Below, piece by piece: positions 26,559 through 63,049 of a DNA stretch of 64,000 bases. The translations under genes were made by a program, and so were the position numbers. The notes under the pieces are model-generated. The model was not told the origin of the DNA, did not search any database, and saw nothing but the letters and a program-made list of their open reading frames with translations. Source of the DNA: Spirochaetota bacterium (GTDB lineage Bacteria; Spirochaetota; UBA4802; UBA5550); NCBI GenBank assembly GCA_050298055.1, contig JBNKTL010000005.1, forward strand, positions 34,149 to 98,148. Reading direction: 5' to 3'. Every line of letters begins with the position of its first letter. Position 1 is the first letter of the stretch.

Positions 26559-26586
26559 TACGAACAGGGAGAGAGAAGACAGCAGG

Positions 26587-27354: not shown

Positions 27355-27421
27355 TTGAAAATTATTAACTCACTTGCAATTATGAATGCCTTTTCAAAAT
27401 ATTTTAAATGGAGGAAACCAG

Positions 27422-28393: not shown

Positions 28394-28410
28394 GAGAGGA
28401 AGAAATTAAA

Positions 28411-28558: not shown

Positions 28559-28614
28559 GTGAAAAAATCTTAAAAAGAAATTTTTTATATGAAAAAAAAC
28601 AACCGGAGCAATAA

Positions 28615-29904: not shown

Positions 29905-29976
29905 TTTTTATTTATGGTTTTTAACTTAATTCAATGTAAAAGATATTTTAAACATTTTAATAAAAGGAGTTTCAAT

Positions 29977-31073: not shown

Positions 31074-31125
31074 TCCAACAAACTGAATTTTAAAATTTCC
31101 CTTGTTATTTATAGGATCAAAGAGA

Positions 31126-47902: not shown

Positions 47903-47939
47903 TAGAAAATCTATGAGTATTCGTTAGGAGGACAATAAT

Positions 47940-49880
47940 ATGGCTGAAGCGAAAGTCAGAAGTGTTGACAGCGCTACTGTTAAAATGCTGGAAAAGGCCG
48001 AGAAAGACGGTTGCAATACCGCCTTTGATCGGGCAGAAGATATGAAACCCTGTCCTATCGGAGCAGTGGGAAGTTGCTGTAAGAACTGCGCCATGGGGCC
48101 CTGCCGTGTACCTTATAAAGAAGGTAAGGAGCAGAAAGTCGGTATTTGCGGTGCTACTCCCGCGACAATAGCTGCAAGAAATTTTGCAAGAATGATAGCT
48201 GCGGGATCGGCATCGCACTCAGACCACAGCAGGGACGTTGTTGAGGTCTTTATCCTTGCGGCTAAGGGAGAGATTCCCGGGTATGAGATAAAAGACGAGC
48301 ATAAACTTATTGCCATGGCAATGGACTATGAGATTGAAGTTGAAGGAAGAGAAATCAACGAGATAGCAATAGATCTCGGGGAGAAATGCCTTTCCCAGTT
48401 CGGCCAGCAGCATGGCGAACTACTGGGCTGTAATAAGGCCCCGGAAAAGAGAAAGGAAATATGGAGAGAAAAGGGTGTCTGGCCCCGGGGGATCGACCGC
48501 GAGGTTGTTGAGGTCATGCACAGGACCCATATCGGTGTTGACCAGGACTACAGGACCCTTATTCAGCAGGGAACGCGGACGGCTCTTGCTGACGGGTGGG
48601 GCGGTTCAATGATATCCACCGATCTCCAGGACATCATGTTCGGTGTTCCCACTCCGGTTTACAGTGAAATCAACCTGGGAGTCATCGAAGAGAAGAATGT
48701 GAACATAATCGTTAACGGCCACGAGCCCCTTATTTCCGAGATGATCATTGTTGCGTCACAGGACCCTGAAATGCTCGAACTGGCCAAGTCCAAGGGCGCT
48801 GAAGGGATCACGGTATCGGGAATGTGCTGTACGGGAAACGAGATCCTGCTCAGGCACGGTATTCCCCTGGCAGGGAACTTCCTGCAGCAGGAACTTGCCA
48901 TCGTTACCGGGGCTGTTGAAGCAATGATCGTTGATGTTCAGTGTATCATGCAGTCTCTTGCCAGTGTTTCAAAGTGTTACCACACCAAGCTGATAACAGT
49001 TTCTCCCAAGGGGAATATCGAAGGCGCGGAGAAGATCCTCTTCGATGATCATGATGCCCTCAATTCGGCAAAAAAGCTCATTACAGCGGCAATTGAGAAT
49101 TTCCCCAACAGGAAGAGCGAGGTGCTTATCCCCGATGAAAGGGCGCCTATGATTGCGGGTTTCAGTCATGAAACCATAGACTACCTTCTCGGCGGAATGT
49201 TCAGGGCATCATACAAACCTCTCAATGATAATATTATCAACGGGAGGATCCGGGGTATAGCCGGTGTTGTTGGGTGCAACAACGCGCGGTCGGTTCACGA
49301 TGACAAACACCTGAAGCTTATCAAGGAGCTCATCAAGAACGATGTGATCGTACTGACTACAGGATGCAGCGCCGCCGCGTGCGGTAAAGCAGGTCTTCTT
49401 ACCCCTGAAGCGGCACAGGAGTATGCCGGAGCAGGGCTTGCGGAGGTCTGTGAGACGGTGGGTATCCCCCCTGTGCTTCATATGGGTGCGTGTGTTGATA
49501 ACAGCCGGATACTCATAGCGGCAACAGCCGTTGTGAAGGAAGGCGGACTGGGTGATGATATCTGTGACCTTCCCGCAGCGGGAGCAGCTCCCGAGTGGAT
49601 GAGTGAAAAAGCTATCGCTATTGGCCAATACTTCGTGGGGTCGGGTGTTTACACGGTCTTCGGAACGGCATTCCCCACAACGGGGAGTAAAGAATTTACC
49701 GATTACCTTTTCAATGGTATTGAGAAAGATTTCGGTGGTAAATGGGATTTCGTGGAAGATCCTATTGAAATGGCGCAGAAGATGATAGCTCATATCGATA
49801 AGAAGCGAAAGGAACTTGGCATCGACAAGGCAAGGGAAAGGGTACTTATGGATATGGCAGACAGACGAGAACTGGCATAA
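47940..49880 (+). CDS. cooS: carbon monoxide dehydrogenase catalytic subunit (CooS/AcsA)
   Basis: Ni-CODH Cys-rich N-terminus (CPIGAVGSCCKNCAMGPC, ICGATPATIAARN), C-cluster ligands (HSDHS, GCNNARS, TTGCSA) and 646 aa length. Confidence 0.9.
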   Translation: MAEAKVRSVDSATVKMLEKAEKDGCNTAFDRAEDMKPCPIGAVGSCCKNCAMGPCRVPYKEGKEQKVGICGATPATIAARNFARMIAAGSASHSDHSRDVVEVFILAAKGEIPGYEIKDEHKLIAMAMDYEIEVEGREINEIAIDLGEKCLSQFGQQHGELLGCNKAPEKRKEIWREKGVWPRGIDREVVEVMHRTHIGVDQDYRTLIQQGTRTALADGWGGSMISTDLQDIMFGVPTPVYSEINLGVIEEKNVNIIVNGHEPLISEMIIVASQDPEMLELAKSKGAEGITVSGMCCTGNEILLRHGIPLAGNFLQQELAIVTGAVEAMIVDVQCIMQSLASVSKCYHTKLITVSPKGNIEGAEKILFDDHDALNSAKKLITAAIENFPNRKSEVLIPDERAPMIAGFSHETIDYLLGGMFRASYKPLNDNIINGRIRGIAGVVGCNNARSVHDDKHLKLIKELIKNDVIVLTTGCSAAACGKAGLLTPEAAQEYAGAGLAEVCETVGIPPVLHMGACVDNSRILIAATAVVKEGGLGDDICDLPAAGAAPEWMSEKAIAIGQYFVGSGVYTVFGTAFPTTGSKEFTDYLFNGIEKDFGGKWDFVEDPIEMAQKMIAHIDKKRKELGIDKARERVLMDMADRRELA

Positions 49881-49913
49881 GCCGGTTAAAAATACTAGAG
49901 AGGAGGCTAAAAA

Positions 49914-52118
49914 GTGTCTAAGATAATAGCTTCAGCAGCCATTAGAGGCGCACATAAGATAGTCGGCAGAGTCGATGACAAGATAAAAGAGGCCATAGAT
50001 AAATTCGGCCCAAACCAGGAAGTGGCGTTTCCCAATACAGGTTACTATCTTCCTATCATATACGGCATGACAGGGGAAAAGGTGGAGAAGCTCAGTGATA
50101 TGGAGAAGATCATCGGTATCACCAAAGATCTTCTTCCCGCCCCGGTAAGGGAGAAAACACATCTTCCCTACCTGGGACCTGTTCTCGATGCGGGTATGGC
50201 AACGTTCTTCGCGGAAGAAATGGAAGAAGCCATCAGGTATATTGAGGACCCGAAATGCTATGTCCCGGGTGAGGACCCTACGGATGAAAATATCTGGCTC
50301 GGTGCGGCGGATGACGTTATCATGAGGAAGAGGGGAGTTGAGTTCGTTGACGGAACAGCTCCCGGGTTTGCCGCCATTCTCGGCGGACCGGAAGATCCCG
50401 AAGTTGCGGAAAAGATCGCGTTAGAGCTCCAGGAGAAGAACCTCTATGTCTTCATGAGTGCTGATTCCGAGGGAAAAAAGATGTCGGAGCAGCTGGTTGA
50501 GAGGGGTGTCCAGATAGGATGGCCCACGCGGCTGGTATCCTTCGGACCCAATGTGGGTTCCGCGGTATTCTCTATCGGTTTCGCCACCCGTGCGGCCATG
50601 TCCTTCGGTGGAATTGATCCCGGTGATTACAGAAAGATCCTCATTTACAACAAGGACAGGGTTTACGCTTTTGCCATGACTTTCGGGTTTGTCAATGACG
50701 AGTGGTACGCCAACGGCGCCGGTTGTATCAACTGGGGATTTCCCGTTATTACGGACACGCCCACACCAGAGATCAATCCTACCGGTGTCTGTACATATGA
50801 ACATGTTGTGGCGAATATTCCTCACGAAGACATCGTACAGAAGTCCATCGAGGTCAGGGGACTGAAAGTTTCCATCACCAAGGTCCCCGTTCCTGTTTCT
50901 TACGGGCCTGCCTTTGAGGGTGAAAGGGTCCGGGGGGACGATATCTTCCTTGAAGCCGGCGGCGGAAGGACAACTGCCGTAGAACTTGTAACGTCCGCCG
51001 AGATGGACCAGGTGACAGACGGAGAGGTAAAGGTTGTGGGGCAGGATATTGGCGATCTCGAGGCCGGCGCGAAGATCCCCCTGGCGATCCTTGTTGAGAT
51101 CGCGGGAAGGCAGATGCAGCCTGACTTTGAGCCGATCCTTGAAAGACAGATCCACCACCTTATCAACTACGCCCAGGGAGTCATGCATATCGGGCAGAGG
51201 GACATTACGTGGATCAGGCTGAGCAAGAACGCCGTGGAGAAGGGATTTACCCTGAGACACCTGGGTGATATCCTTCATGCCAAGCTCCACCAGGACTTCG
51301 GCAATATCTTTGATAAGGCCCAGGTAACGATCTTTACCGATGAAGCGGAGGTCCAGAAGATCCTTGAAAAGGCCAGGGGGATATACAGGGTAAGGGACGA
51401 CAGGGTCGGAAGCATGACAGACGAGGACACGGATCCTTTCTATTCATGTACGCTCTGCCAGTCATTTGCTCCCAACCACGTATGTGTTGTTACCCCTGAA
51501 AGAACAGGGCTCTGCGGCGCGTACAACTGGCTCGACTGTAAAGCGTCATACGAGATAAATCCCACAGGGCCCAACCAGCCCATTCTCAAGGGTGAAACGC
51601 TTGACGCGGAGTACGGGAAGTGGTCAGGGACCGATGAGTTTGTACTCAAGGCATCAAGGGGAAATGTCCCCACCGTTGATGCGTACAGTATCATGAGAAA
51701 TCCCATGACCTCATGCGGGTGCTTCGAATGTATAGCGGCTGTTCTGCCCACATGCAACGGCATTATGACTGTTGACAGGGACACATCGGCTATGACCCCG
51801 TCGGGTATGAAGTTTACAACTCTTGCGGGAACTGTAGGGGGCGGTAACGTGACACCGGGATTCCTGGGACACAGTAAGCTCTATATTACAAGTAAGAAGT
51901 TTCTCAAGGCGGAGGGAGGACTTCAGCGGCTTGTCTGGATGCCAAAATCTCTTAAGGAGGAGATCCGGGAGAGGTTTGAGGTCCGCGCAAAGGAGATCGG
52001 GATCCCCGACCTTCTTGACAGGATCGCGGACGAGACCGTGGCATCAACCGAGGAAGAAGTCTACGCTTATATCAGCGAGAAAAAACATCCCGCTCTTGAG
52101 ATGGATTCACTCTTCTAG
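49914..52118 (+). CDS. acsB: acetyl-CoA synthase catalytic subunit AcsB
   Basis: 734 aa; A-cluster region SCGCFEC and overall AcsB/CdhC similarity. It follows cooS. Confidence 0.9.
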   Translation: MSKIIASAAIRGAHKIVGRVDDKIKEAIDKFGPNQEVAFPNTGYYLPIIYGMTGEKVEKLSDMEKIIGITKDLLPAPVREKTHLPYLGPVLDAGMATFFAEEMEEAIRYIEDPKCYVPGEDPTDENIWLGAADDVIMRKRGVEFVDGTAPGFAAILGGPEDPEVAEKIALELQEKNLYVFMSADSEGKKMSEQLVERGVQIGWPTRLVSFGPNVGSAVFSIGFATRAAMSFGGIDPGDYRKILIYNKDRVYAFAMTFGFVNDEWYANGAGCINWGFPVITDTPTPEINPTGVCTYEHVVANIPHEDIVQKSIEVRGLKVSITKVPVPVSYGPAFEGERVRGDDIFLEAGGGRTTAVELVTSAEMDQVTDGEVKVVGQDIGDLEAGAKIPLAILVEIAGRQMQPDFEPILERQIHHLINYAQGVMHIGQRDITWIRLSKNAVEKGFTLRHLGDILHAKLHQDFGNIFDKAQVTIFTDEAEVQKILEKARGIYRVRDDRVGSMTDEDTDPFYSCTLCQSFAPNHVCVVTPERTGLCGAYNWLDCKASYEINPTGPNQPILKGETLDAEYGKWSGTDEFVLKASRGNVPTVDAYSIMRNPMTSCGCFECIAAVLPTCNGIMTVDRDTSAMTPSGMKFTTLAGTVGGGNVTPGFLGHSKLYITSKKFLKAEGGLQRLVWMPKSLKEEIRERFEVRAKEIGIPDLLDRIADETVASTEEEVYAYISEKKHPALEMDSLF

Positions 52119-52237
52119 ATAATCAGGCAGTACCGGGGATGCCGGAAATTAAGGTATCCCCGGTATTGATAAAACCGTAGAGCGGTTATAATGAGAAAAA
52201 ATAGAAATAAAAGAGAAAAAAAGGAAGGAGATATTAA

Positions 52238-53587
52238 ATGGCACTTACAGGTATAGAAATCTTCAAGCTTTTACCCAAGACAAACTGCGGTGATTGCGGT
52301 GTTCCCACATGTCTCGCGTTTGCAATGAAACTCGCGGCCGGGCAGGCGGAACTTGCGTCATGCCCCCATGTTTCCGAAGAGTCAAAGGCCAAGCTTGATT
52401 CTGCGTCCGCTCCTCCCGTGTTGCCGGTGACAATCGGTACGGGTGACGGGGCATTCAAGACCGGTGGTGAAACGGTCATGTTCAGGCATGAAAAGACCTT
52501 TGTTAATCCCACGGGTATAGCTGTTCTTATAACGGATAAAATGAGCGATGCTGATGTGGAGAAGAGGTTAAAGAATTTTGTTGATCTCCAGTATGACCGC
52601 GTGGGCATGCTTCTGAAAGCCGATCTCATCGCCGTGAAGTCCGAAACCGGTGATGCGGGCGCTTTCGAGGCCCTTATTAATAAGGCCAAAGGGACGGCAA
52701 ATTGCGGACTTATCCTTATGAGCGATAATGCCGATGTCCTGGAGGCAGGGGTTAAGGCATGTGCTGAAACAAAGCCGCTTATTTATGCTGCCACAAAAGA
52801 TAATGTTGAGAAAGTCGGAAACATTGCAAAGGAGAACAAGTGTTCCGTTGCGGTGAAAGGCGCAAATCTTGACGAAGTTATCGAACTGACGGAAAAGCTG
52901 GCAGGCATGGGCCTTAAGGAGATCGTCATAGACTCCGGGGCACGTGAGAAGAAGCAGGCTTTCCGGGACCAGGTAGTCATAAGAAGGGCCGCAATAAAGA
53001 ACACCTTCAGGGCGCTGGGATATCCCACAATCACATTTCCCTGTGAAATGTCAGATGACTTAATGGAAGAAACACTTATCGCTTCCACCTTTATCGCCAA
53101 GTATGGGGGAATATGCGTCATGTCCGACCTTGAAGGTCACAGCCTCTTCCCGCTTCTGGTTGAGAGGATGAACATATTTACCGATCCTCAGAGACCCATG
53201 GCCACGGAAGAAGGAATTTATCCCATTAACAATCCCGATGAAAACTCACCGGTTCTTATCACCACAAATTTCTCTCTTACCTACTTTATTGTTTCCGGTG
53301 AGATTGAAGGAAGCAGGATGCCCTGCTGGCTTCTCATCATGGAAAACGAGGGGCTCTCGGTCCTCACGGCCTGGGCGGCAGGCAAGTTCGTAGCCGATGC
53401 CATTGCTCCCTTTGTGAAAAAGAGCGGAATTGCGGATAAGATCAAACATAAATCACTGGTGATACCGGGATACGCGGCGACAATCAGCGGGGAACTTGAA
53501 GAAGAACTCTCAGACTGGAAAATCGTGATCGGTCCCAGGGAAGCCGCTCATATTCCCGCGTTCCTTAAGGAATTCAAGCCGGAATAG
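52238..53587 (+). CDS. acsC: corrinoid iron-sulfur protein large subunit AcsC
   Basis: N-terminal CGDCGVPTCLAFAMKL [4Fe-4S] motif, TIM-barrel and B12-binding domains. 449 aa. Confidence 0.9.
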   Translation: MALTGIEIFKLLPKTNCGDCGVPTCLAFAMKLAAGQAELASCPHVSEESKAKLDSASAPPVLPVTIGTGDGAFKTGGETVMFRHEKTFVNPTGIAVLITDKMSDADVEKRLKNFVDLQYDRVGMLLKADLIAVKSETGDAGAFEALINKAKGTANCGLILMSDNADVLEAGVKACAETKPLIYAATKDNVEKVGNIAKENKCSVAVKGANLDEVIELTEKLAGMGLKEIVIDSGAREKKQAFRDQVVIRRAAIKNTFRALGYPTITFPCEMSDDLMEETLIASTFIAKYGGICVMSDLEGHSLFPLLVERMNIFTDPQRPMATEEGIYPINNPDENSPVLITTNFSLTYFIVSGEIEGSRMPCWLLIMENEGLSVLTAWAAGKFVADAIAPFVKKSGIADKIKHKSLVIPGYAATISGELEEELSDWKIVIGPREAAHIPAFLKEFKPE

Positions 53588-53615
53588 TCTATTAGAGTAT
53601 TACAGAAGGAGGAAA

Positions 53616-54506
53616 TTGATGTCAAAATTTATTCGTATTGGTGAAAACTTAAACGTCATGTCCAAGGTTCTCGGGCCGGCTATGAAAGAGAGAAATCCCG
53701 GCCCTATCCAGGAGATGGTTAAAAAAGAAGCTGAAAAGGGTGTGGATTATATCGATCTGAATATCGGCCCCGCGCGGAAAGAGGGTGATAAGCTCATGGA
53801 CTGGGTGGTCAATACTGTCCAGGAAGTTACGGATATTCCCCTTTCGCTGGATACAACAAGCCTTGTTGCCATGGAAGCGGGTCTGAAAGCGGCAAAGAAC
53901 AAACCGCTTATCAACTCTGTGACCATGCAGTCTGACAGGCTTGTTCCCGGGCTGGAACTTGCGGCGAAGTACAATGCCGATGTTGTTGCCGTGCTCTGGA
54001 GCGACCAGGGAATGCCCCGGGACACCAACGAGCGCGCAATGCACGTGGTTGATTTCTCTACAAAGGCGGCGGAACTGGGGGTCCCCCTGGAAAATATATG
54101 GTTTGATCCCATTGTCTCGCCAATCAGTGTTGAGGTAAACCAGGTCAAGGCATGTGTTGAGTGTATGGGAATGCTTGCCGATATTGCTCCCGGCTCAAAA
54201 TCAACCGTGGGCCTTTCAAACGTATCCAACGGTGTTCCCGAGGAGCTTCGGCCATGGCTGAATATTACCTATTTGATCATGTTGATGAAAAACGGTCTCT
54301 ATTCTGCCATCGTTGACGCTTTTGATGATGAAATGACTGCATTTGTATCAGGAGAGAAACAGAACATTGTGGATCTCGTGAACAGAATGACAGATGGTGA
54401 AAAAGTTGATATAAATTCACTGAGCGATGTAGAGAAGAAATTTGCCAAGACAGTGAAGGTGCTCACAGGTGAGACTCTCTTCTCTGATTCATGGCTTGAG
54501 GTTTAA
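53616..54506 (+). CDS. acsE: methyltetrahydrofolate:corrinoid iron-sulfur protein methyltransferase AcsE
   Basis: Pterin-binding fold with IGENLNVMSK, LDLNIGP-like, LINSVT and GLSNVS motifs, collinear with Moorella AcsE. Confidence 0.85.
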   Translation: MMSKFIRIGENLNVMSKVLGPAMKERNPGPIQEMVKKEAEKGVDYIDLNIGPARKEGDKLMDWVVNTVQEVTDIPLSLDTTSLVAMEAGLKAAKNKPLINSVTMQSDRLVPGLELAAKYNADVVAVLWSDQGMPRDTNERAMHVVDFSTKAAELGVPLENIWFDPIVSPISVEVNQVKACVECMGMLADIAPGSKSTVGLSNVSNGVPEELRPWLNITYLIMLMKNGLYSAIVDAFDDEMTAFVSGEKQNIVDLVNRMTDGEKVDINSLSDVEKKFAKTVKVLTGETLFSDSWLEV

Positions 54507-54658: not shown

Positions 54659-55315
54659 ATGACGACAATAACCGAAGAGATTAAAAAGGAAGAAAAAGCC
54701 GAAGGTGCCGTTAAACCGGATACGGCGGAGAGGCCCCGGGCAAAATATACCTACAGGCTGAATGAGTACAGATCCTTTGCCGGTGAGATTGCCGGTGCCA
54801 GCGGTGAGCCCATAAACAGCTGCTACCAGTGTAAGAAGTGTTCCAACGGCTGTCCCGTTACCTATGCCATGGACTACCAGCCGCACCAGGTAATAAAGAT
54901 GATGCAGCTGGGACTTGAGGAAAAGGTCCTTTCATCAAAGACCCTGTGGCTCTGTGCCGCCTGTGAAACATGCGGGACGCGGTGTCCCAATGAGATAAAG
55001 CTCGCGGAGATGTTCGATGTCCTCAAACAAAAGGCGGAAAAGTCCGGGTACCGGGTAGGGCATAAAGAAGCTTCCGTATTACACAAAGTCTTTCTCTCTT
55101 CGGTTAAGAAATACGGGCGGGTCCATGAAGTGGGAATGATGAGGCAGTTCATGCTGAAATCAGGAGGGCTCATGGGGAAGTTGTTCAGCGGGGCCCTTTT
55201 CAAAGACGCGATCCTGGGCCTGAAATTTTTCAAGAGGGGCAAACTCTCCCTGTCTGCCCACAGGATCAAGGGTGTGGATGAAGTAAAAAAAATCTTAAAA
55301 GGGGTAGGGAAATAG
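54659..55315 (+). CDS. hdrC: heterodisulfide reductase subunit C-like protein
   Basis: Two CxxCxxC(G)xxP ferredoxin-like motifs (CYQCKKCSNGCP, CAACETCGTRCP) in a 218-aa protein followed by hdrB. Confidence 0.8.
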   Translation: MTTITEEIKKEEKAEGAVKPDTAERPRAKYTYRLNEYRSFAGEIAGASGEPINSCYQCKKCSNGCPVTYAMDYQPHQVIKMMQLGLEEKVLSSKTLWLCAACETCGTRCPNEIKLAEMFDVLKQKAEKSGYRVGHKEASVLHKVFLSSVKKYGRVHEVGMMRQFMLKSGGLMGKLFSGALFKDAILGLKFFKRGKLSLSAHRIKGVDEVKKILKGVGK

Positions 55316-55316
55316 T

Positions 55317-56171
55317 ATGAAAGCTTCTTATTATCCCGGCTGTTCCCTGCACGGAACGGGACTGGAATATGGCGAATCAACAGAGACAGTGTTTAAAGCT
55401 CTCGGAGCGGATCTTGTTGAAATAGATGACTGGAACTGCTGCGGCGCGTCATCGGGCCACAGTGCCGGTAAGAAAATTGCCGTTGAACTGGCGGGAAGAA
55501 ATCTTATGCAGGCTGAAAAGAACGGCTTAAAGGACATGGTGGTCCCCTGTTCCGCGTGCTACCAGAGAACAAAGGTGGCCGAGAATGAAATTGAGAAAGA
55601 CCCGGAATCTTTCCCCGAAGTGAAATATAACGGTGAACTGAAGGTATGGGACATTCTCTCATTCCTCAAAGAAGAAGTGGGATTCGATGCCATAAAATCA
55701 AGGGTACAGAAAAAACTGGAAGGCCTCAGGGCTGTCTGTTACTACGGCTGCCTTACCATGAGGCACCCGGAAATTACGGGAGCAAAGGAATATGAAAATC
55801 CAACGAATATGGAGAAGCTCCTCTCTGTTCTCGGTGTGGAGGTGATAGAGTGGTCCTACAAGACAGACTGCTGCGGGGGCGGACTGGTGCTTTCGAGCCC
55901 GGATGTTGTTTTTGACCTCACCGGGAAGCTTTTTACAAAGGCCCGGGAAGCGGGTGCCCAGTGCCTTGTGACAATATGCCCTCTCTGCCAGGGAAACCTT
56001 GACCAGAGACAGGGCGACGCGGGAGCAAAGCTTAAAACAAAGTTTGATCTTCCGGTGTTCTATATTACCGAGTTGATCGGTCTCGCCCTGGGAGAGAAGG
56101 AGACGGAAAAGTGGCTTAAAAGGCACTTTGTTGACCCTGTAAGACTTCTAAAGTCAAAGGGTCTTTTGTGA
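55317..56171 (+). CDS. hdrB: heterodisulfide reductase subunit B-like protein (two CCG domains)
   Basis: CxxCCGxxxxxxxxxxC...CxxC patterns twice (NCCGASSGH..., DCCGGGLV...). 284 aa. Confidence 0.85.
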   Translation: MKASYYPGCSLHGTGLEYGESTETVFKALGADLVEIDDWNCCGASSGHSAGKKIAVELAGRNLMQAEKNGLKDMVVPCSACYQRTKVAENEIEKDPESFPEVKYNGELKVWDILSFLKEEVGFDAIKSRVQKKLEGLRAVCYYGCLTMRHPEITGAKEYENPTNMEKLLSVLGVEVIEWSYKTDCCGGGLVLSSPDVVFDLTGKLFTKAREAGAQCLVTICPLCQGNLDQRQGDAGAKLKTKFDLPVFYITELIGLALGEKETEKWLKRHFVDPVRLLKSKGLL

Positions 56172-56313: not shown

Positions 56314-59300
56314 ATGACTGAAAAAGATAATGTTGTTCAACTGAATGAGAAGACAGGACCGGGGTCCGGTGTAGGGGCTGTTATGGTGGTCGGCAGCGGT
56401 ATTGCGGGGATGCAGGCAGCCCTTGATCTTGCTAACAGCGGTTTTAAGGTCTACCTCATTGAGAGGGACACGGCAATAGGGGGAAAGATGTCGCAGCTTG
56501 ACAAAACATTCCCAACAAACGACTGCGCAATGTGTGTTATCTCTCCCAAGTTGATTGAAGTTGATAAGAACATTAATATAGATATTATCACAAACTCCGA
56601 GGTCATGGCTGTCGAGGGAAGTGTGGGAGAATTCGAAATTACCGTGAGGGAACACGCGCGGTATGTAGACCTTGACAAGTGTACATCATGCGGCGACTGT
56701 CTTAAGGTCTGTCCCATATCCCTGCCCAACGACTACAACCTCAACCTCAATGAGAAAAACGCCATATACAAAAGATACCCCCAGGGCATCCCCAATGGCT
56801 ATGCCATTGAAAAGGCGGACAGGGCCCCCTGCGGTCTCACCTGTCCCACGGGGATAAACGTGCAGGGGTATGTTGCCCTTGTGGGAGACGGGAAGTTCCG
56901 GGAGGCGTATGATCTCATTACCGAAAGGAACCCTTTCCCCTCTGTATGCGGGCGTGTCTGCCACCATCCCTGTGAGGGAGAGTGTAACAGGGGGGATATT
57001 GACGAACCTGTTGCCATCAACAACCTCAAGAGGTTTACCTCTGACTGGGTAAGAAAGAAGAGGAAAGAGGAAGGATACCAGGTTGAGAAACCGGAAATTG
57101 ATTCCGGTAAGAAGAAGGTCGCCATCGTGGGCGGCGGGCCGGCAGGTCTTACCGCGGCCAGGGACCTTGTTCTCGCGGGATACCCGGTTACTGTTTTTGA
57201 GGCCCGGGAGAAACTGGGCGGCGCAATGAGATACAGTATTCCCCGGTACAGGCTTCCCGAAGAGATGCTCGACTGGGACATTAAAAATATCATCGAACTG
57301 GGGATCGAGGTTAAAACGGAAACGGCACTGGGAAAGGACTTTACCGTTGAGAGCCTCATGCAGGGAGAATTTGGGGCCGTATTTCTCGGTATAGGAGCGC
57401 GGCTGGGAAGCTCATCACGGGCGAAGGGTGAAGAACTGGAAGGCGTCATGCAGGGGATCGATTTTCTCCTGGATGTAAGCCGGGGAAAGGACGTGGATGT
57501 GAAGGGCGGTGATGTCTTTGTTATCGGCGGAGGTAACACGGCCATCGATGCTTCCCGGACAGCACTCCGGCTGGGGGCCAAAAGCGTCACCATCGTCTAC
57601 AGGAGGACCGAGGCTGAGATGCCCGCCCAGGACGAGGAGATCGAGGACGCGAAGGAAGAGGGGATCAGGATCGAGGTTCTCAATGCCCCTGTTGAATATA
57701 TCGGCGAAAACGGCAGGCTGAAGAAGGTCAGGCTCCAGAAGATGGAGCTGGGAGAACCGGACGAGAGCGGCCGGAGAAGACCGGTGCCCGTTGAAGGAAG
57801 TGAATATGAAGTTGATGTTGATTATGTTATTGCCGCCATCGGGCAAAATGTTGATACGGACTGCCTCGACGGCGTGAATACCTCCCGGTGGGGGACCATA
57901 GAAGCGGATGAACTGCTTTTGACCACTAACAGGGAGGGAGTGTTTGCCGGCGGAGACGCCGTTACGGGACCTGCGTCTGTTGTTGAAGCCATCAACCAGG
58001 GACATGAGGCAGCCGAGAGCATCATGAGATTTCTTGAAGGCAGGGACATTGCCCGGGGCCGGGAAAAGCCGGAACAGGAAATGGCCAAAGTCCCGGAGAA
58101 CAGGCCTTACTACAGCAGGGAGAGGTATGAGGCCGGGAAGATCCCCGTTGAAGAGAGAAGGGGGAACTACAATGAAGTGGAACAGACATTTACCGAGGAG
58201 ATGGCGGTGGATGAGGCCAAACGATGTGTTGCCTGCGGCATCTGCTGCGAGTGTTTCCAGTGTGTTATTGCCTGCCTTCCCGGGGCGGTGAACCACGACC
58301 AGGAGACCGTTGACGTAAAATACAAGGTGGGGTCCCTTGTCCTTGCACCCGGATTTGATCTCTTTGACGCTTATAAGAAGCCGGAATACGGATACGGAAG
58401 GTACCGGAACGTCATTACCTCCATGGAGATGGAGAGGACATTCAGCGCGTCCGGGCCGTACCAGGGGCATGTGAAACGGCCCTCTGACAAGACCCTGCCG
58501 CCGAGAATTGCCTGGCTGCAGTGTGTGGGATCAAGAGACGCGTCCATCGGCCGGGAATACTGTTCATCGGTCTGCTGTACCTATGCCACAAAGCAGGCCA
58601 CTCTTGCCAGGGACCACTACAGGGAGAAGGTCAGTGCCACGATTTTTCTCAACGATTTAAGAACATTCGGAAAGGGTTTCGAGCGCTACTACAACAACGC
58701 CGTGGAGAAGTATGGTGTGAGATATGTAAAGAGCTTTATCTCCACCATTAAGGAAGTCCCTGAAACGAAGAACCTTTTGATAACGTATATAAATGAAGAG
58801 GGTAAGCTCACCGAGGAGGAGTTTGACCTTGTTGTCCTCTCCATGGGGCTTGTTCCCTCGAAGACATCCCGGGATCTCGCGGAGAGACTGGAGATCGGGC
58901 TGAACAAGTACGGATTTGTTGAACCGCAGCCCATGAAGCCGGGAGAAACATCCCGGGAGGGGATATTCGTGGCAGGGGCCTTTGAGGCGCCCAAGGACAT
59001 CCCGGAATCGGTCATGAGCGCCAGCAGTGCCGCGGCACTTTCAACGGAGTTTCTCTCAAAGTCCCGGGGTTCCATGGTAACCGGTAAGGAGTACCCCCCG
59101 GAGAAGAAGATAGGCCCTGAAGACGAACCGAGGATAGGGGTGTTTGTCTGTCACTGCGGAGTGAACATAGCGGGTGTTGTTGATGTCCCCAATGTAGTGG
59201 ATTATGCCAAAACAATACCCAATGTGGTGCATGTTGAGAACAACCTCTTCACCTGCTCAAGCGATACCCAGGAGCATCTGAAAGAGGTCATTGAAGAACA

Positions 59301-60792
59301 TAAGCTCAACAGGGTGGTGGTTGCCTCCTGTTCGCCCAGGACCCATGAACCCCTTTTCCAGGAGACAATAAGGGACGCCGGTCTCAACAAGTATCTATTC
59401 GAGATGGCAAATATCCGGGACCAGTGCTCATGGGTCCACGCCACCGAACCGGACCACGCCACCGACAAGGCCAGGGACCTGGTAAGAATGGCCGTATCAC
59501 GATCAAAAACCCTGGAGTCCCTCTACGAGATGCCCTTTAAAGTGAAACAGAACGCCCTGATAATCGGGGGGGGTGTTTCCGGTATGACAGCCGCGGTGGG
59601 CCTTGCAAAGCAGGGTTTTAAATCAGACCTTGTTGAGATATCGGACAGCCTGGGAGGCAACGCGCACCATGTTCATTATACACTTGAAGGTGTGGAGCCG
59701 GGAGCATATCTCCGGGGACTTATTGATGAAGTCAATTCAAATGACCTGATCAATGTCCGCCTGAACACGAGTGTTAAGAGGTACACCGGGCACGTTGGAA
59801 ACTTTACAACGGTTGTGGAAAGCGACGGGAACCAGTTTGAGATTGAACACGGCGCGTATATTGTCGCCACGGGAGGTGTTGAATATCGGCCCCGCGAATA
59901 CATGTACGGGGAAAACGAAAATGTTGTAACGCAGGTGGAACTTGAAGAGAGGATCACCGGCAGCCCCGAAGTGTTCAAGAGCGTACAAACAATTGTTATG
60001 ATACAGTGCGTGGGGTCCCGGGACAGCGAACACCCCTACTGCAGCAGGTACTGCTGTTCCGCCGCGGTGAAAAACGCGCTGAAGCTCAGGGAAATCAACC
60101 CGGAGATGAATATCCATGTCCTTTACCGGGACATCCGTACCTACGGATTTAAGGAACTCTACTATAAAGAGGCACGGGAGAAGGGGATAAACTTCATTAC
60201 CTATGACAAAGATATTAAACCGGAAATAAGCAAAGGGACCGGTTCCCCTCTCTCCGCGGTTGTTTATAATAAGGAGCTTGATGCCGATCTTGAGATCGAT
60301 GCGGATCTCGTTGTACTCAGCGCCGCAATAAGGCCCCATCCGGAGAGCCACAGGATCGTTGAGGCCCTGAAACTCTCAAACGATCCGGACAACTTTTTCC
60401 TTGAGGCCCACATGAAGCTGCGGCCCCTGGATTTTGCCAATATCGGCGTCTTCCTCTGCGGTCTCGCCCATTCGCCAAAGCTCATTGAGGAGAGCATTTC
60501 CCAGGCCAAAGGGGCGGTATCCCGGGCCTGCACGGTCCTCTCCCGGGAGGAGATGATGGTAGGGGGGATCGTCTCACATGTGGATGCGGACAGGTGCGTG
60601 GCCTGTCTTACCTGCATCAGGGTGTGTCCCTATGATGTTCCGGTAATCAACGCGGAGGGTGTTGCCGAGATATCCGAGGCATCGTGCCAGGGCTGCGGAA
60701 ACTGCGCGGCAGCCTGTCCCCGGAAGGCCATTGAGGTCTATCACTATAAAGACAGACAGATAATCAGCAAATGTGAGGTGCTCTTCGCATAG
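56314..60792 (+). CDS. large HdrA-like flavoprotein fusion (HdrA domain - GltD/NfnB-like NAD(P)H-binding domain - second HdrA domain); HdrL-like
   Basis: 1492 aa. N-terminal VVGSGIAGMQAALDLANSGFKVYLIERD FAD site plus a Cys cluster. The middle carries KKVAIVGGGPAGLTAARDL...VIGGGNTAIDASRTALRLGA (glutamate-synthase-small-subunit-like). The C-terminal part repeats the HdrA fold (ALIIGGGVSGMTAAVGLAKQGF, multiple 4Fe-4S CxxCxxCxxxCP). No internal stop. Confidence 0.8.
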   Translation: MTEKDNVVQLNEKTGPGSGVGAVMVVGSGIAGMQAALDLANSGFKVYLIERDTAIGGKMSQLDKTFPTNDCAMCVISPKLIEVDKNINIDIITNSEVMAVEGSVGEFEITVREHARYVDLDKCTSCGDCLKVCPISLPNDYNLNLNEKNAIYKRYPQGIPNGYAIEKADRAPCGLTCPTGINVQGYVALVGDGKFREAYDLITERNPFPSVCGRVCHHPCEGECNRGDIDEPVAINNLKRFTSDWVRKKRKEEGYQVEKPEIDSGKKKVAIVGGGPAGLTAARDLVLAGYPVTVFEAREKLGGAMRYSIPRYRLPEEMLDWDIKNIIELGIEVKTETALGKDFTVESLMQGEFGAVFLGIGARLGSSSRAKGEELEGVMQGIDFLLDVSRGKDVDVKGGDVFVIGGGNTAIDASRTALRLGAKSVTIVYRRTEAEMPAQDEEIEDAKEEGIRIEVLNAPVEYIGENGRLKKVRLQKMELGEPDESGRRRPVPVEGSEYEVDVDYVIAAIGQNVDTDCLDGVNTSRWGTIEADELLLTTNREGVFAGGDAVTGPASVVEAINQGHEAAESIMRFLEGRDIARGREKPEQEMAKVPENRPYYSRERYEAGKIPVEERRGNYNEVEQTFTEEMAVDEAKRCVACGICCECFQCVIACLPGAVNHDQETVDVKYKVGSLVLAPGFDLFDAYKKPEYGYGRYRNVITSMEMERTFSASGPYQGHVKRPSDKTLPPRIAWLQCVGSRDASIGREYCSSVCCTYATKQATLARDHYREKVSATIFLNDLRTFGKGFERYYNNAVEKYGVRYVKSFISTIKEVPETKNLLITYINEEGKLTEEEFDLVVLSMGLVPSKTSRDLAERLEIGLNKYGFVEPQPMKPGETSREGIFVAGAFEAPKDIPESVMSASSAAALSTEFLSKSRGSMVTGKEYPPEKKIGPEDEPRIGVFVCHCGVNIAGVVDVPNVVDYAKTIPNVVHVENNLFTCSSDTQEHLKEVIEEHKLNRVVVASCSPRTHEPLFQETIRDAGLNKYLFEMANIRDQCSWVHATEPDHATDKARDLVRMAVSRSKTLESLYEMPFKVKQNALIIGGGVSGMTAAVGLAKQGFKSDLVEISDSLGGNAHHVHYTLEGVEPGAYLRGLIDEVNSNDLINVRLNTSVKRYTGHVGNFTTVVESDGNQFEIEHGAYIVATGGVEYRPREYMYGENENVVTQVELEERITGSPEVFKSVQTIVMIQCVGSRDSEHPYCSRYCCSAAVKNALKLREINPEMNIHVLYRDIRTYGFKELYYKEAREKGINFITYDKDIKPEISKGTGSPLSAVVYNKELDADLEIDADLVVLSAAIRPHPESHRIVEALKLSNDPDNFFLEAHMKLRPLDFANIGVFLCGLAHSPKLIEESISQAKGAVSRACTVLSREEMMVGGIVSHVDADRCVACLTCIRVCPYDVPVINAEGVAEISEASCQGCGNCAAACPRKAIEVYHYKDRQIISKCEVLFA

Positions 60793-60945: not shown

Positions 60946-61005
60946 AGATTTATAATTTAGATAATAAATACTGATTATGTTTAATAATTTAAGGAGAATG
61001 AGTGA

Positions 61006-61455
61006 ATGAGCACAGATTTTGAACCGAAAATAGCGGCATTTGCCTGTCACTACTGTTCCTATACGGCGGCGGACCTGGCGGGCTCCATGAGGCTTGACTA
61101 TCCCTCTACGGTGCGGATCATCAAGCTTCTCTGCACCGGCCGTGTGGATACTATCCACCTGCTCAAGGCATTCGAAGAAGGCGCTGATGCTGTCTTCGTT
61201 GCCGGATGAGAAGAGGGCGACTGCAATTTCCTGGAAGGAAATTATCGAGCGAAAAACCGCGTTAAATATACAAAGAAGTTACTTGATGAAATAGGGATTG
61301 GCGGAGACCGGCTGGAGATGTACAACATTGGCGCTTCCGAGGGGCCCATGTTTGCCCAGGCGGTAAAGGAGATGACCGAGAAGGCCAGGGAACTGGGCCC
61401 GAGCCCTATTACCAGGAAAAAACACCACGAAGGAGACCAGGGGGACAGAAGATGA
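61006..61455 (+). CDS. mvhD: MvhD-like (methyl-viologen-reducing hydrogenase delta subunit family) protein with in-frame UGA at 61207..61209: candidate selenoprotein
   Basis: ORF 61006..61209 (KIAAFACHYCSYTAADLAG...VFVAG) stops at a TGA exactly where the conserved Cys of the VxGC..GDCH(F/Y) motif lies. The same frame continues as EEGDCNFLEGNYRAKNRV...GIGGDRLEMYNIGASEG to a TGA at 61453..61455. A hairpin (CGA...AATTTCC-TGGAA-GGAAATT...TCG) begins 8-15 nt after the UGA. The sel genes are in this window. Confidence 0.65.
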
Positions 61456-62120
61456 TCGTAGCAAATCGAAAACCCATAGAAGAGATAAAAGAGATGCTCT
61501 CTCCATACAAAAAGATATTACTTGCCGGGTGCGGGACCTGTGTCAGTGTTTGTATGGCCGGGGGTGAAAAAGAGGTGGAGATCCTTGCCAGTGAACTGAG
61601 GATGATATCCGAAATGGAAAACAAAGGCTGGGAGATCACCGAAAAGACCCTGCAGCGCCAGTGCGACAGGGAGTACATTGAACCGTTTAAGGATGATTTT
61701 GACGGAGCGGATATCGTCATGTCCATGGCCTGCGGCGTGGGTGTTCAGTATTCGGCGGAAGTGTTCCCGAAGTCTGTTGTCGTCCCGGCGCTGAATACCA
61801 CATTCTACGGTACCAACCTGGGTGAGGGTGAGTGGTCCGAACGCTGCGCGGGATGCGGAGACTGTGTCCTTGACCAGACACTGGGGATCTGCCCCGTTGC
61901 CCGGTGCTCCAAGGGGCTCTACAACGGGCCCTGCGGCGGGACCGACAAGGGGAAATGCGAGGTGAGCCAGGAGCTTGACTGCGCGTGGTACCTTATCCAT
62001 GAAAGGATGAAGGAACTGGACAGGCTTGACATGATGGGTAAAATCATCGAGCCCAGAAGCTGGAGCTCCAGCCTCAACGGGGGACCCAGAACGAGAATCA
62101 GGGAGGACTTAAAGAAATGA
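61452..62120 (+). CDS. metV: methylenetetrahydrofolate reductase-associated Cys-rich (zinc-ribbon) subunit MetV-like
   Basis: Cys clusters (AGCGTCVSVCMAGG, CAGCGDCVLDQTLGICPVARCSKGLYNGPCGG) typical of the MTHFR C-terminal-like protein encoded upstream of metF in acetogens and deltaproteobacteria. Confidence 0.65.
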   Translation: MIVANRKPIEEIKEMLSPYKKILLAGCGTCVSVCMAGGEKEVEILASELRMISEMENKGWEITEKTLQRQCDREYIEPFKDDFDGADIVMSMACGVGVQYSAEVFPKSVVVPALNTTFYGTNLGEGEWSERCAGCGDCVLDQTLGICPVARCSKGLYNGPCGGTDKGKCEVSQELDCAWYLIHERMKELDRLDMMGKIIEPRSWSSSLNGGPRTRIREDLKK

Positions 62121-63049
62121 AATCAGGCAGTAATTTAGAAAAAGTCTTTGCAAAGGGAGAATTTGCCATAACCGGCGAGCTCGGCCCTCCCAAGGGGAGC
62201 GATGTTGAGGAAGTGAAAAAGAAGGCCGGTATGCTCAAGGGGTTCGTTGACGCGGTCAATATTACTGATAACCAGACTGCGGTGGTGAGGATGTCCAGTA
62301 TCGCCGCTTCAACCATCTGCCTGCAGGAGGGCCTTGAGCCTGTGATGCAGATGGTCTGCCGTGACAGGAACAGGATCGCGATGCAGAGTGACATCCTGGG
62401 CGCTGCCGCCTTTGGTCTCAGAAATATTCTCTGTCTCAGCGGTGACCACCAGTCATTCGGGAACCAGGCCGCCGGCAAAAACGTTTTTGATATAGACTCC
62501 ATACAGCTCATCAGCACGGTAAAGAGGATGCGGGATGAGAAAAAGCTCCTGAACAACGATGATGAACTCATGGGGGGTGCTCCCTTTTTTATCGGGGCGG
62601 CGGCGAATCCCTTCGCGGAGCCCTTTGATTACAGGCCCTACAGGCTCAAAAAGAAGGTCGAGGCGGGCGTGGACTTTATCCAGACGCAGTGCATATACGA
62701 CATGGATATGTTCAGGGAGTATATGAAAAAGGTCGTTGATATGGGACTTCATGAAAAATGCAGGATAATGGCGGGTATTACACCCCTGAAGTCCGCGGGT
62801 ATGACAAAGTATATGGCCAACAGGGTCCCGGGTATCATCATCCCCCAGTCGTATATCGACCGGATGAGCGGTGTCCCCAAGGAAGAGGCCGCCGAAGAAG
62901 GGATCAAGATCTGTATCGAGCAGATGCACCAGATGAAGGAGATCGAGGGTGTGGCCGGTATCCACCTCATGGCCATCGAATGGGAGCACCGTTCCGGTGA
63001 GATCATCGAGAGGGCGGGTTTCCTCCCGCGGCCGGTTTTTGAGAGTTAG
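62117..63049 (+). CDS. metF: 5,10-methylenetetrahydrofolate reductase MetF
   Basis: MTHFR TIM-barrel family (ITGELGPPKG, DFIQTQ...). 310 aa, last gene of the cluster. Confidence 0.85.
   Translation: MKSGSNLEKVFAKGEFAITGELGPPKGSDVEEVKKKAGMLKGFVDAVNITDNQTAVVRMSSIAASTICLQEGLEPVMQMVCRDRNRIAMQSDILGAAAFGLRNILCLSGDHQSFGNQAAGKNVFDIDSIQLISTVKRMRDEKKLLNNDDELMGGAPFFIGAAANPFAEPFDYRPYRLKKKVEAGVDFIQTQCIYDMDMFREYMKKVVDMGLHEKCRIMAGITPLKSAGMTKYMANRVPGIIIPQSYIDRMSGVPKEEAAEEGIKICIEQMHQMKEIEGVAGIHLMAIEWEHRSGEIIERAGFLPRPVFES

What the first reader, a model, noticed from the sequence alone, without database searches (positions are those of the whole stretch)
61006..61455. MvhD-like gene with UGA replacing the conserved cysteine: candidate selenocysteine MvhD in the hdr/metF cluster
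The 67-aa ORF ends at TGA 61207..61209 directly after VFVAG. Continuing in frame gives U-EEGDCNFLEGNY..., i.e. the VxG-C-xxGDC(H/N)(F/Y) motif of MvhD with Sec in place of the first Cys. The reading frame then runs another 81 codons with MvhD-like content (GIGGDRLEMYNIGASEG) to a TGA overlapping the metV start. A hairpin with an AATTTCC/GGAAATT stem lies just 3' of the UGA. Sec-containing MvhD/HdrA are known in methanogens and some sulfate reducers, so this is plausible biology that a standard ORF caller truncates.
Basis: partly seen in the sequence, partly recalled or inferred. Interest (0 to 1): 0.55.

Follow-up and report, generated by a model that had tools for sequence, protein, structure and literature searches.

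The report
Selenocysteine-encoding mvhD gene, split by callers
The apparent stop codon inside this small iron-sulfur protein gene is almost certainly read as selenocysteine, giving one 149-residue MvhD subunit of a Wood-Ljungdahl electron-bifurcating enzyme; this is a correct call but a further example of a selenoprotein family known for decades.

Summary
ORF 61006..61209 ends at TGA 61207..61209. The frame runs 81 more codons to TGA 61453..61455, which overlaps the metV ATG.

Read with Cys or Sec at the TGA, the 149-aa product matches Pfam PF02662 (MvhD/FlpD) end to end, E = 1e-47.

Evidence that the codon encodes Sec:
- Most homologs have Cys at this position.
- The solved Methanococcus maripaludis VhuD has a non-standard residue (X, read as Sec) at the aligned position.
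- The window itself carries tRNA-Sec, selA and selB.
- 141 distinct homologs from several phyla carry TGA at this codon, and every one has a hairpin 16-19 nt downstream.
- In the TGA genes the codons forming that hairpin are locked and show a compensatory A-U/U-A swap. In 66 Cys-type homologs the same codons are free. All six core pairs form in 133/141 versus 3/66 (p = 4e-40).
- A covariance model built without this window hits only 61207..61252 (46.6 bits).

The gene sits in an acs - hdrCBA - mvhD - metVF cluster, so it is the MvhD subunit of a Moorella-type methylene-THF reductase complex.

Sec-containing MvhD/FrhD is a long-known bacterial selenoprotein family. This is a new member of a known kind: an annotation repair, of low novelty.

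The parts
61006..61455 (+). Full mvhD coding sequence: 149 codons with Sec at codon 68, plus the stop
   Evidence: Translation. Pfam PF02662 covered 1-123/123, E = 1e-47. NCBIfam VhuD model NF045873: 176 bits, below its 215-bit cut-off.
60991..60996 (+). Shine-Dalgarno-like AAGGAG, 9 nt upstream of the ATG
   Evidence: Read directly from the sequence.
61207..61209 (+). In-frame UGA, read as selenocysteine (residue 68)
   Evidence: Cys in most homologs. TGA at this codon in 141 distinct homologs. X at the aligned position of PDB chain 9sfi_K.
61225..61243 (+). SECIS hairpin: 5' arm 61225-61231 AAUUUCC, loop 61232-61236 UGGAA, 3' arm 61237-61243 GGAAAUU. It lies within codons N74-Y80.
   Evidence: Fold. 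Conserved register and compensatory pair. Codon lock in Sec-type versus Cys-type genes. Covariance model hit 61207..61252 at 46.6 bits. The longest stretch with no substitution against L001 is 61219-61259.
61453..61455 (+). True stop codon TGA, overlapping the metV ATG (61452-61454); back-up in-frame TAG at 61459-61461
14841..14930 (-). tRNA-Sec (anticodon UCA), selC
   Evidence: ARAGORN. Rfam RF01852, 73 bits against a gathering score of 47.
13430..14815 (-). selA, L-seryl-tRNA(Sec) selenium transferase
   Evidence: TIGR00474, 505.5 bits against a cut-off of 267.9.
10954..12771 (-). selB, Sec-specific elongation factor that binds the SECIS
   Evidence: TIGR00475, 313.3 bits against a cut-off of 242.25.
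54659..56171 (+). hdrC-like (54659..55315) and hdrB-like (55317..56171) genes
   Evidence: TIGR03290 and TIGR03288 matches, both below the equivalog cut-offs.
56314..60792 (+). 1492-aa HdrA-like protein fused to a GltD-like NAD(P)-binding module; partner of MvhD
   Evidence: NF040770 at 944 bits; PRK12771 at 557 bits over residues 166-672.
61452..63049 (+). metV-like (61452..62120) and metF (62117..63049), with start and stop codons overlapping
   Evidence: PF12225 E = 3.1e-34; PF02219 E = 1.2e-40.

Best explanation
The region 61006..61455 is one gene, mvhD, whose codon 68 (UGA, 61207-61209) is decoded as selenocysteine.

How the recoding works (established bacterial mechanism, inferred here):
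1. SelA converts Ser-tRNA(Sec) to Sec-tRNA(Sec).
2. SelB-GTP carries that tRNA and binds the mRNA hairpin at 61225-61243, whose apical loop holds the guanosines.
3. The hairpin sits 15 nt behind the UGA, so when the UGA is in the ribosomal A site the tethered SelB delivers Sec in competition with release factor 2.
4. Translation runs on to the real stop at 61453-61455, which is coupled to the metV start.

The product is a 149-residue [2Fe-2S] protein of the MvhD/VhuD/FrhD family. Together with the adjacent HdrA-like flavoprotein, HdrB, HdrC, MetV and MetF it should form a Moorella-type MetFV-HdrABC-MvhD methylene-tetrahydrofolate reductase complex. That complex serves the Wood-Ljungdahl genes immediately upstream. 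MvhD relays single electrons between iron-sulfur clusters of HdrA and its bifurcating FAD.

What is shown: the reading frame, family membership, the Cys/Sec pairing, the conserved SECIS, the Sec machinery and the synteny.

What is inferred: actual Sec insertion, complex formation, and the chemical role of Sec68. By elimination Sec68 is probably one of the four [2Fe-2S] ligands. The protein has only C14, C17, C43, U68 and C73, and the equivalent of C17 is described as an additional non-ligand Cys in Methanothermobacter marburgensis MvhD (PMC13580544).
For: 1. One Pfam domain spans the UGA: halves match profile positions 1-59 and 62-123, and the joined protein matches 1-123 with E = 1e-47.

2. 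The position is Cys in the large majority of roughly 1,900 homologs, and the downstream sequence is conserved.

3. PDB 9sfi_K (M. maripaludis VhuD) has X at the aligned residue (VFVAGX). The literature states that archaeal members carry two Sec and bacterial members one of the two (PMC1976440).

4. tRNA-Sec, selA and selB are in the window.

About 110 of these are true mvhD genes with the in-frame TGA, from Desulfobacterota, Chloroflexota, Cloacimonadota, Firmicutes and others.

6. All 141 distinct TGA-type genes have a hairpin in fixed register. 133 form all six core pairs, against 3 of 66 Cys-type genes (Fisher p = 4e-40).

7. The codons forming the hairpin are locked in TGA-type genes and free in Cys-type genes:
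- His: CAT 127 and CAC 7, versus CAC 30 and CAT 29.
- Asn: AAT 140/141, versus AAC 36 and AAT 29.
- The Gly third base tracks the Tyr/Phe second base: A-U 98, U-A 36.

8. A covariance model trained without this window finds a single strong hit, at 61207..61252 (46.6 bits, E about 3e-16).

9. A metagenome copy with 83% DNA identity keeps the TGA. 56 of its 75 substitutions are at third positions on both sides of the TGA, and none falls in 61219-61259.

10. TGA is an ordinary stop for 12 of 42 long ORFs, and no other real gene in the window has an internal TGA.

11. At least 85 TGA-type loci share the hdrA-mvhD-metV(-metF) order. The window carries acsD, cooS, acsB, acsC and acsE immediately upstream, and fhs further upstream at 42674..44446.
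Against: - There is no experimental evidence of Se incorporation for this gene or organism.
- selD (selenophosphate synthetase) was not seen in the window and the rest of the genome was not available.
- The hairpin is short (7-8 bp, about -9 kcal/mol) and no more stable than shuffled controls.
- No Rfam family matches it.
- Its covariance-model score (46.6 bits) is at the low end of the Sec-type range (median 61.7) and only just above the best Cys-type gene (45.0), because the model is dominated by primary sequence.
- His74, nearly invariant in the family, is Asn here.
- Two homologs keep the hairpin but carry AGA or GGG at the codon, so the residue may not be indispensable in every lineage, or those contigs carry errors.
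Confidence: 0.93

Rival explanations
1. Pseudogene or sequencing error: a Cys codon (TGC/TGT) mutated or was misread to TGA, so the gene is broken.
For: A single base separates TGA from TGC or TGT. The window comes from a metagenome-type assembly. Two homologs have other codons (AGA, GGG) at this site.
Against: - The same sequence occurs in an independent assembly.
- An 83%-identical copy keeps the TGA, with mostly third-position changes on both sides.
- 141 distinct homologs share the TGA at the same codon, together with a hairpin that Cys-type genes lack.
- The Sec machinery is encoded 46 kb away in the same window.
Confidence: 0.02
2. Real termination: the cell makes a 67-aa N-terminal fragment, and possibly a separate C-terminal peptide from ATG 61318, as gene callers annotate it.
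For: Gene callers give 67-aa and 45-aa products. Sec insertion in bacteria competes with release factor 2, so some truncated product is expected, especially when selenium is scarce.
Against: - Codons 69-104 (61210-61317) lie outside both called ORFs, yet they are conserved at protein level and match Pfam positions 62 onward.
- The called fragments would split the Cys/Sec set of a single [2Fe-2S] site.
- There is no ribosome-binding site or conserved start for a second ORF.
- Cys-type orthologs in the same synteny are single proteins.
Confidence: 0.03
3. UGA is read through as another amino acid (Trp, Gly or Cys), either by a reassigned genetic code or by near-cognate suppression, not as Sec.
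For: One database entry translates the homolog with W at this site (P0001). Codes 4 and 25 exist in bacteria.
Against: - TGA ends 12 of 42 long ORFs in the window, including mvhD itself.
- No other real gene has an internal TGA.
- The W in P0001 results from TGA being read as Trp; the same translation also runs through the real stop.
- tRNA-Sec, selA and selB are present, and a UGA-linked hairpin is conserved.
Confidence: 0.02

Closest known systems
Bacterial Sec-containing MvhD/FrhD (COG1908, PF02662): for example mvhD1/2/3/5 of Desulfobacterium autotrophicum HRM2, mvhD of Desulfococcus multivorans, and 12 copies in Olavius symbiont deltaproteobacteria
   Same: - Same family, with a single Sec replacing a conserved Cys.
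- Encoded next to hdrA-type genes in anaerobes that carry selA, selB and selC (PMC2702500, PMC5109826, PMC1976440).
- A Desulforapulum MAG locus (L056) has the TGA at the same codon with the same hairpin.
   Different: - Only about 60-68% identical to the nearest genome-derived copies.
- Asn instead of His after the second Cys. The outermost hairpin pair is A-U here; 39 of 108 aligned Sec-type genes have C-G there and most of the rest have no pair.
- This copy belongs to the metVF cluster rather than to a hydrogenase, dsr or fdh cluster.
VhuD of Methanococcus maripaludis / M. jannaschii (archaeal selenoprotein; PDB 9SFI)
   Same: - Same fold family: phmmer E = 2e-43 over residues 6-135.
- A non-standard residue (X) at exactly the aligned position, VFVAGX.
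- It acts as the [2Fe-2S] adaptor that feeds the HdrA FAD (PMC13518236, PMC6019823).
   Different: - VhuD has a second Sec in the N-terminal CxxU motif, where this protein keeps Cys17.
- Archaeal SECIS elements lie in untranslated regions, whereas here the hairpin is inside the coding sequence.
- VhuD partners a [NiFeSe] hydrogenase or formate dehydrogenase, not MetFV.
BamF of Geobacter metallireducens class II benzoyl-CoA reductase
   Same: An MvhD-homologous selenoprotein adaptor with a [2Fe-2S] cluster next to an HdrA-like bifurcating subunit (bioRxiv 10.64898/2026.04.10.717634).
   Different: - BamF's Sec19 is at the other Sec position, the CxxU site near the cluster.
- BamF is more than 100 residues longer.
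MetFV-HdrABC-MvhD methylene-THF reductase of Moorella thermoacetica (Moth_1191-1196)
   Same: Same gene set and order (hdrC, hdrB, hdrA, mvhD, metV, metF) beside acsE and the CODH/ACS genes (PMC5736913, PMC5861303).
   Different: - Whether the Moorella MvhD has Cys at this codon was not tested here. Cys-type orthologs in the same gene order are common.
- HdrA here is a 1492-aa fusion with a GltD-like NAD(P)-binding module.
Escherichia coli fdhF SECIS (the bacterial SECIS paradigm)
   Same: A coding-region hairpin directly 3' of the UGA, with G in the apical loop, read by SelB. This comparison rests on established knowledge; the definition is in PMC12013277 and PMC1976440.
   Different: - No sequence similarity.
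- The stem is shorter and A/U-rich.
- The loop is UGGAA. No bulged U was identified.

Membership tests
MvhD/VhuD/FrhD (Pfam PF02662 FlpD) | Full-length match to the family profile, continuous across the UGA | tested here: met
   PF02662 covered 1-123/123, 161.6 bits against a cut-off of 22.3. The halves match positions 1-59 and 62-123.
MvhD/VhuD/FrhD (Pfam PF02662 FlpD) | Conserved Cys set (CxxC near the N-terminus, the Cys of the CTG motif, G-C/U-xxGxC) | tested here: met
   C14, C17, C43 and C73 are invariant in alignment A1. Position 68 is Cys in 20 of the 23 aligned homologs; the other three have W, R and G.
MvhD/VhuD/FrhD (Pfam PF02662 FlpD) | Binds a [2Fe-2S] cluster and docks on HdrA | not testable with these tools
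   Inferred from solved homologs (5ODC, 7BKB, 9SW2, 9SFI) and from the adjacent hdrA.
NCBIfam NF045873 (VhuD, archaeal selenoprotein exception model) | Score above the curated cut-off | tested here: not met
   176.3 bits against a cut-off of 215. The protein is related to archaeal VhuD proper but is not a member of that group.
Selenoprotein (Sec/Cys pair criterion) | In-frame UGA aligned with Cys in homologs, and with UGA in several independent homologs | tested here: met
   145 tblastn matches with TGA (141 distinct sequences) and 69 with Cys (66 distinct) at the codon. PDB 9sfi_K has X at the aligned site.
Bacterial SECIS element | Stem-loop immediately downstream of the UGA with guanosine in the apical loop | tested here: met
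   A 7-8 bp stem at 61225-61243 with loop UGGAA, starting 15 nt after the UGA.
Bacterial SECIS element | Structure conserved with compensatory change, and specific to UGA-containing genes | tested here: met
   Pair 29-39 is A-U in 73 and U-A in 29 sequences. All six core pairs form in 133/141 TGA genes against 3/66 Cys genes, p = 4e-40. Firmicutes and Cloacimonadota carry variant hairpins. Covariance model hit of 46.6 bits.
Bacterial SECIS element | Binds SelB and directs Sec insertion | not testable with these tools
   Needs a binding assay or a reporter assay.
Bacterial Sec-decoding trait | tRNA-Sec, SelA and SelB are encoded | tested here: met
   all above the curated cut-offs.
Bacterial Sec-decoding trait | SelD (selenophosphate synthetase) is encoded | not tested
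   Not seen among the window ORFs that were scanned. The rest of the genome is not available.
MetFV-HdrABC-MvhD methylene-THF reductase (Moorella type) | Clustered hdrC, hdrB, hdrA, mvhD, metV and metF next to Wood-Ljungdahl genes | tested here: met
   The same order occurs in at least 85 TGA-type and about 48 Cys-type loci.
MetFV-HdrABC-MvhD methylene-THF reductase (Moorella type) | The six subunits form a complex with NADH-dependent methylene-THF reductase activity | not testable with these tools
   A biochemical property (Mock et al. 2014, as cited in PMC5861303).

The most novel reading that the evidence does not exclude
Sec68 may be a direct ligand of the MvhD [2Fe-2S] cluster, making this a selenium-ligated iron-sulfur centre at the entry to the bifurcating FAD of a bacterial methylene-THF reductase.

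The Sec form, together with its SECIS embedded in the C-H-[F/Y]-L-E-G-N coding motif, may have arisen once and spread by horizontal transfer across Desulfobacterota, Chloroflexota, Cloacimonadota and Firmicutes. In these groups it alternates with Cys forms in the same operon.

If both are true, the Cys/Sec switch at a cluster ligand would be a natural experiment on how ligand chemistry tunes flavin-based electron bifurcation.
Probability: 0.3. Interest if true: 0.4.

Novelty: new member of a known kind. Interest (0 to 1): 0.2.

Why it matters
Practical value:
- The gene is mis-annotated by standard callers as 67-aa and 45-aa fragments, or is translated under the wrong genetic code.
- As a result, the methylene-THF reductase complex of this Wood-Ljungdahl organism looks incomplete in automated metabolic reconstructions.
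- Repairing the gene shows that the organism is a selenium user whose central C1 pathway depends on Sec decoding.

Comparative by-product:
- About 140 TGA-type mvhD genes from several phyla share one SECIS that overlaps a conserved peptide motif.
- Its codons are locked and one base pair shows a compensatory swap.
- This gives a compact signature that could be used to annotate the family automatically.

Limit: none of this changes current understanding. The family, its Sec positions and its occurrence in sulfate reducers and methanogens are already documented.

Tried and rejected
- **Single-sequence folding as evidence for a SECIS.** The hairpin is no more stable than dinucleotide shuffles (z = -0.13 and -0.41), so folding energy was dropped as an argument.
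- **Rfam.** There is no SECIS-type match at gathering thresholds over the window, nor at E up to 10 over 61100-61400. Only chance hits to serC leader and DLEU2_6 appeared.
- **A lower helix (alignment columns 16-19 with 48-51).** Only 68% of cells pair and most change is one-sided. It is not claimed as part of the element.
- **Other selenoprotein genes in the window.** I suspected the adjacent ORFs 20665..21144 and 21151..23334 were a split formate dehydrogenase. They are ccmE and ccmF. A systematic scan for TGA-joined reading frames found no other credible case.
- **Genetic code reassignment.** Rejected on stop-codon usage.
- **Identifying the organism.** Exact-sequence look-ups gave only an unnamed 141-kb NCBI contig and a Logan contig. 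The nearest named relative in the genome scan is an uncultured Thermodesulfobacteriota MAG at 68% MvhD identity. Taxonomy therefore remains tentative.
- **The ligand set of the MvhD [2Fe-2S] cluster.** The primary structure paper (Wagner et al. 2017) is not held, and the open papers I read do not list the ligands. The ligand role of Sec68 therefore rests on elimination only.

Full report
**Observation.**
- An ATG at 61006 lies 9 nt after AAGGAG. It opens a 67-codon frame that ends ...AVFVAG-TGA at 61207-61209.
- The same frame continues EEGDCNFLEGNYRAKNRVKYTKKLLDEIGIGGDRLEMYNIGASEG... for 81 codons to TGA 61453-61455.
- That TGA overlaps the ATG (61452) of the next gene and is backed by an in-frame TAG two codons later.
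- The hairpin AAUUUCC / UGGAA / GGAAAUU occupies 61225-61243, beginning 15 nt after the UGA.

**What the protein is.**
- With Cys written at the TGA, the 149-aa product matches Pfam PF02662 (FlpD, the methyl-viologen-reducing hydrogenase delta subunit) over the whole profile: 1-123/123, E = 1e-47.
- The two halves separately match profile positions 1-59 and 62-123, so one domain spans the stop codon.
- NCBIfam's archaeal VhuD model scores 176 bits, below its 215-bit cut-off. The protein is a relative of VhuD, not an archaeal VhuD proper.
- A search of the large protein collection gave about 1,980 homologs at E <= 1e-10. In an alignment of the 23 best, C14, C17, C43 and C73 are invariant. Position 68 is Cys in 20; the other three have W, R and G.
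- The best hit (87% identical) shows W at position 68. Its DNA (L001) carries TGA there, and the translation also runs through the real stop. That entry therefore results from TGA being read as Trp.

**Is the UGA a Sec codon?** Five independent lines say yes.

1. *The decoding machinery is in the window.*
   - tRNA-Sec at 14841..14930 (-): ARAGORN; Rfam 73 bits against a gathering score of 47.
   - selA at 13430..14815 (-): TIGR00474, 505 bits.
   - selB at 10954..12771 (-): TIGR00475, 313 bits.

2. *The position is an established Sec site.* The solved M. maripaludis VhuD chain (9sfi_K) has X at VFVAGX, aligned to residue 68. It has a second X in the N-terminal CxxX motif. Zhang and Gladyshev reported that archaeal members have two Sec and bacterial members one of the two (PMC1976440).

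About 110 are true mvhD genes, from Desulfobacterota, Chloroflexota, Cloacimonadota, Firmicutes, Aminicenantes and others. A protein-based metagenome scan added 24 more TGA-type and many Cys-type genes.

4. *A hairpin is tied to the TGA.*
   - In 141 distinct TGA-type genes, the six core pairs (window 61226-61231 with 61237-61242) all form in 133.
   - The other eight have a hairpin shifted by three bases (Firmicutes, GCCACUA-UGU-UAGUGGC) or a single mismatch.
   - In 66 Cys-type genes all six pairs form in only 3 (Fisher p = 4e-40).
   - The cause is visible in the codons, and the pattern used for the scan did not constrain these synonymous sites.

   | Codon | TGA-type genes | Cys-type genes |
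   |---|---|---|
   | His | CAT 127, CAC 7 | CAC 30, CAT 29 |
   | Phe | TTC only | TTT 28, TTC 15 |
   | Leu | CTG only | several codons |
   | Asn | AAT 140 of 141 | AAC 36, AAT 29 |
   | Gly | GGT with Tyr UAC; GGA with Phe UUC | GGC 33, GGG 13, GGA 10, GGT 10 |

   - The Gly-Tyr/Phe link is a compensatory A-U to U-A exchange: 98 and 36 cases, and no A/A or U/U combination (73 and 29 in the 108-sequence alignment).
   - In the window the outermost pair is A-U (Asn74 AAU with Tyr80 UAU). In 39 of the 108 aligned Sec-type genes it is C-G, and most of the rest have no pair there.
   - A covariance model built from 67 such sequences, without the window or its close relative, finds one strong match in all 64 kb: 61207..61252, 46.6 bits, E about 3e-16, all seven pairs formed.
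   - Independent TGA-type loci mostly score 50-68 bits (median 61.7; the lowest, L130, 30.1) and Cys-type loci at most 45. The separation by score is imperfect. The codon analysis is the stronger test.

5. *Both sides of the UGA are under purifying selection.* Against L001 there are 75 differences in 450 nt, 56 of them at third positions. The longest stretch without any change (61219-61259, 41 nt) is the hairpin region.

**Alternatives.**
- A reassigned code is excluded. TGA terminates 12 of 42 long ORFs, and no other real gene has an internal TGA.
- A pseudogene or sequencing error is excluded by the conservation above and by an independent assembly of the same sequence.
- A genuinely split gene is implausible. 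Codons 69-104 fall outside both called ORFs, yet they are conserved and match the profile.
- Some termination at the UGA is expected as a by-product, because Sec insertion competes with release.

**Context and function.**
- Upstream lie formate-THF ligase (42674..44446), then acsD, cooS, acsB, acsC and acsE (46961..54506).
- These are followed by hdrC and hdrB (54659..56171) and a 1492-aa HdrA-like protein fused to a GltD-like NAD(P)-binding module (56314..60792).
- Downstream lie metV and metF.
- This is the gene set and order of the Moorella thermoacetica MetFV-HdrABC-MvhD methylene-THF reductase (PMC5736913, PMC5861303).
- At least 85 TGA-type loci and about 48 Cys-type loci share the hdrA-mvhD-metV(-metF) order. 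Sec and Cys forms therefore alternate within one orthologous operon.
- Residue 68 corresponds to Cys67 of M. marburgensis MvhD. It directly precedes His68 and lies near Asp71, both of which approach the ligand bound by the HdrA Cys202/Cys205 pair (PMC13580544).
- The same paper calls Cys16 (window C17) an additional Cys between the cluster and the FAD. The window protein has only five Cys/Sec residues, so Sec68 is by elimination a likely cluster ligand. This is an inference I could not check on coordinates.

**Comparison with what is known.**
- Sec-containing MvhD (also named FrhD, COG1908) is a documented selenoprotein family.
- D. autotrophicum HRM2 has four copies (PMC2702500).
- Desulfococcus multivorans has one, beside hdrA2BC (PMC5109826).
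- Olavius symbionts have twelve (PMC1976440).
- BamF of Geobacter has Sec at the other position (bioRxiv 10.64898/2026.04.10.717634).
- Recent reviews list the family (PMC13188914, PMC9312934).
- The present gene is therefore a new member of a known kind.

**Verdict.**
Interest is low (0.2). The result is a sound annotation repair, plus a tidy comparative description of the family's SECIS. It is not a new kind of biology.

Noticed in passing
window 10954..14930 (-): A compact selenocysteine locus: selB (10954..12771), selA (13430..14815) and tRNA-Sec (14841..14930), all on the minus strand. No selD was seen among the ORFs scanned.
   Followed up: partly
L203:1072-1488 and L204:465-887: Two mvhD homologs keep the exact SECIS hairpin codons (CAT TTC CTG GAA GGA AAT) but have GGG (within a run of G) or AGA instead of TGA at the Sec codon. 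These are either assembly errors or recent loss of the Sec codon with the hairpin not yet decayed.
   Followed up: partly
L001:231-725 (protein P0001); L202:887-1336: Public gene calls mishandle this gene in two ways. One entry reads TGA as Trp and runs through both the Sec codon and the real stop. Another splits the gene into 67-aa and 45-aa products.
   Followed up: yes
window 56314..60792 (+): The HdrA-like gene encodes a 1492-aa fusion containing a GltD-like NAD(P)-binding module (residues 166-672) and HdrA-like segments that match the HdrA models in four stretches. It resembles the 'HdrL' type described in D. autotrophicum. It has no in-frame TGA, so this HdrA is not a selenoprotein.
   Followed up: partly
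window 2578..8268 (+): A 1896-aa ORF with no Pfam match at E <= 1e-5. ORFs at 31102..31998, 32019..33569, 37676..39178 and 40523..41866 (-) also lack Pfam matches.
   Followed up: no
window 18506..30000 and 39190..40278 (+): Cytochrome c maturation genes (an ABC ATPase, two Cytochrom_C_asm proteins, CcmE; the 727-aa one is CcmF-like), heme synthesis genes (hemA, hemC, hemB, hemL-like) and a multiheme c7/c3-type cytochrome sit between the sel locus and the Wood-Ljungdahl cluster. This fits a Desulfobacterota-like anaerobe, but the taxonomy was not established.
   Followed up: partly
L005, L082, L093, L103, L105, L117, L071; L037, L066, L118: Lineage-specific SECIS variants occupy the same place. 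Firmicutes-type genes (C-H-Y-V-S-G-N) use GCCACUA-UGU-UAGUGGC, shifted by 3 nt. Cloacimonadota genes (C-H-Y-Q-V-G-N) use AUUACC-AGGU-UGGUAAU. The hairpin is kept although the peptide and the loop differ.
   Followed up: partly
window 15784..18371 (+): A NuoF-like flavoprotein (646 aa, below the equivalog cut-off) followed by a 2Fe-2S / NuoG-N-terminal-like protein lies next to the sel locus. This may be the NADH-input module of a bifurcating enzyme.
   Followed up: no
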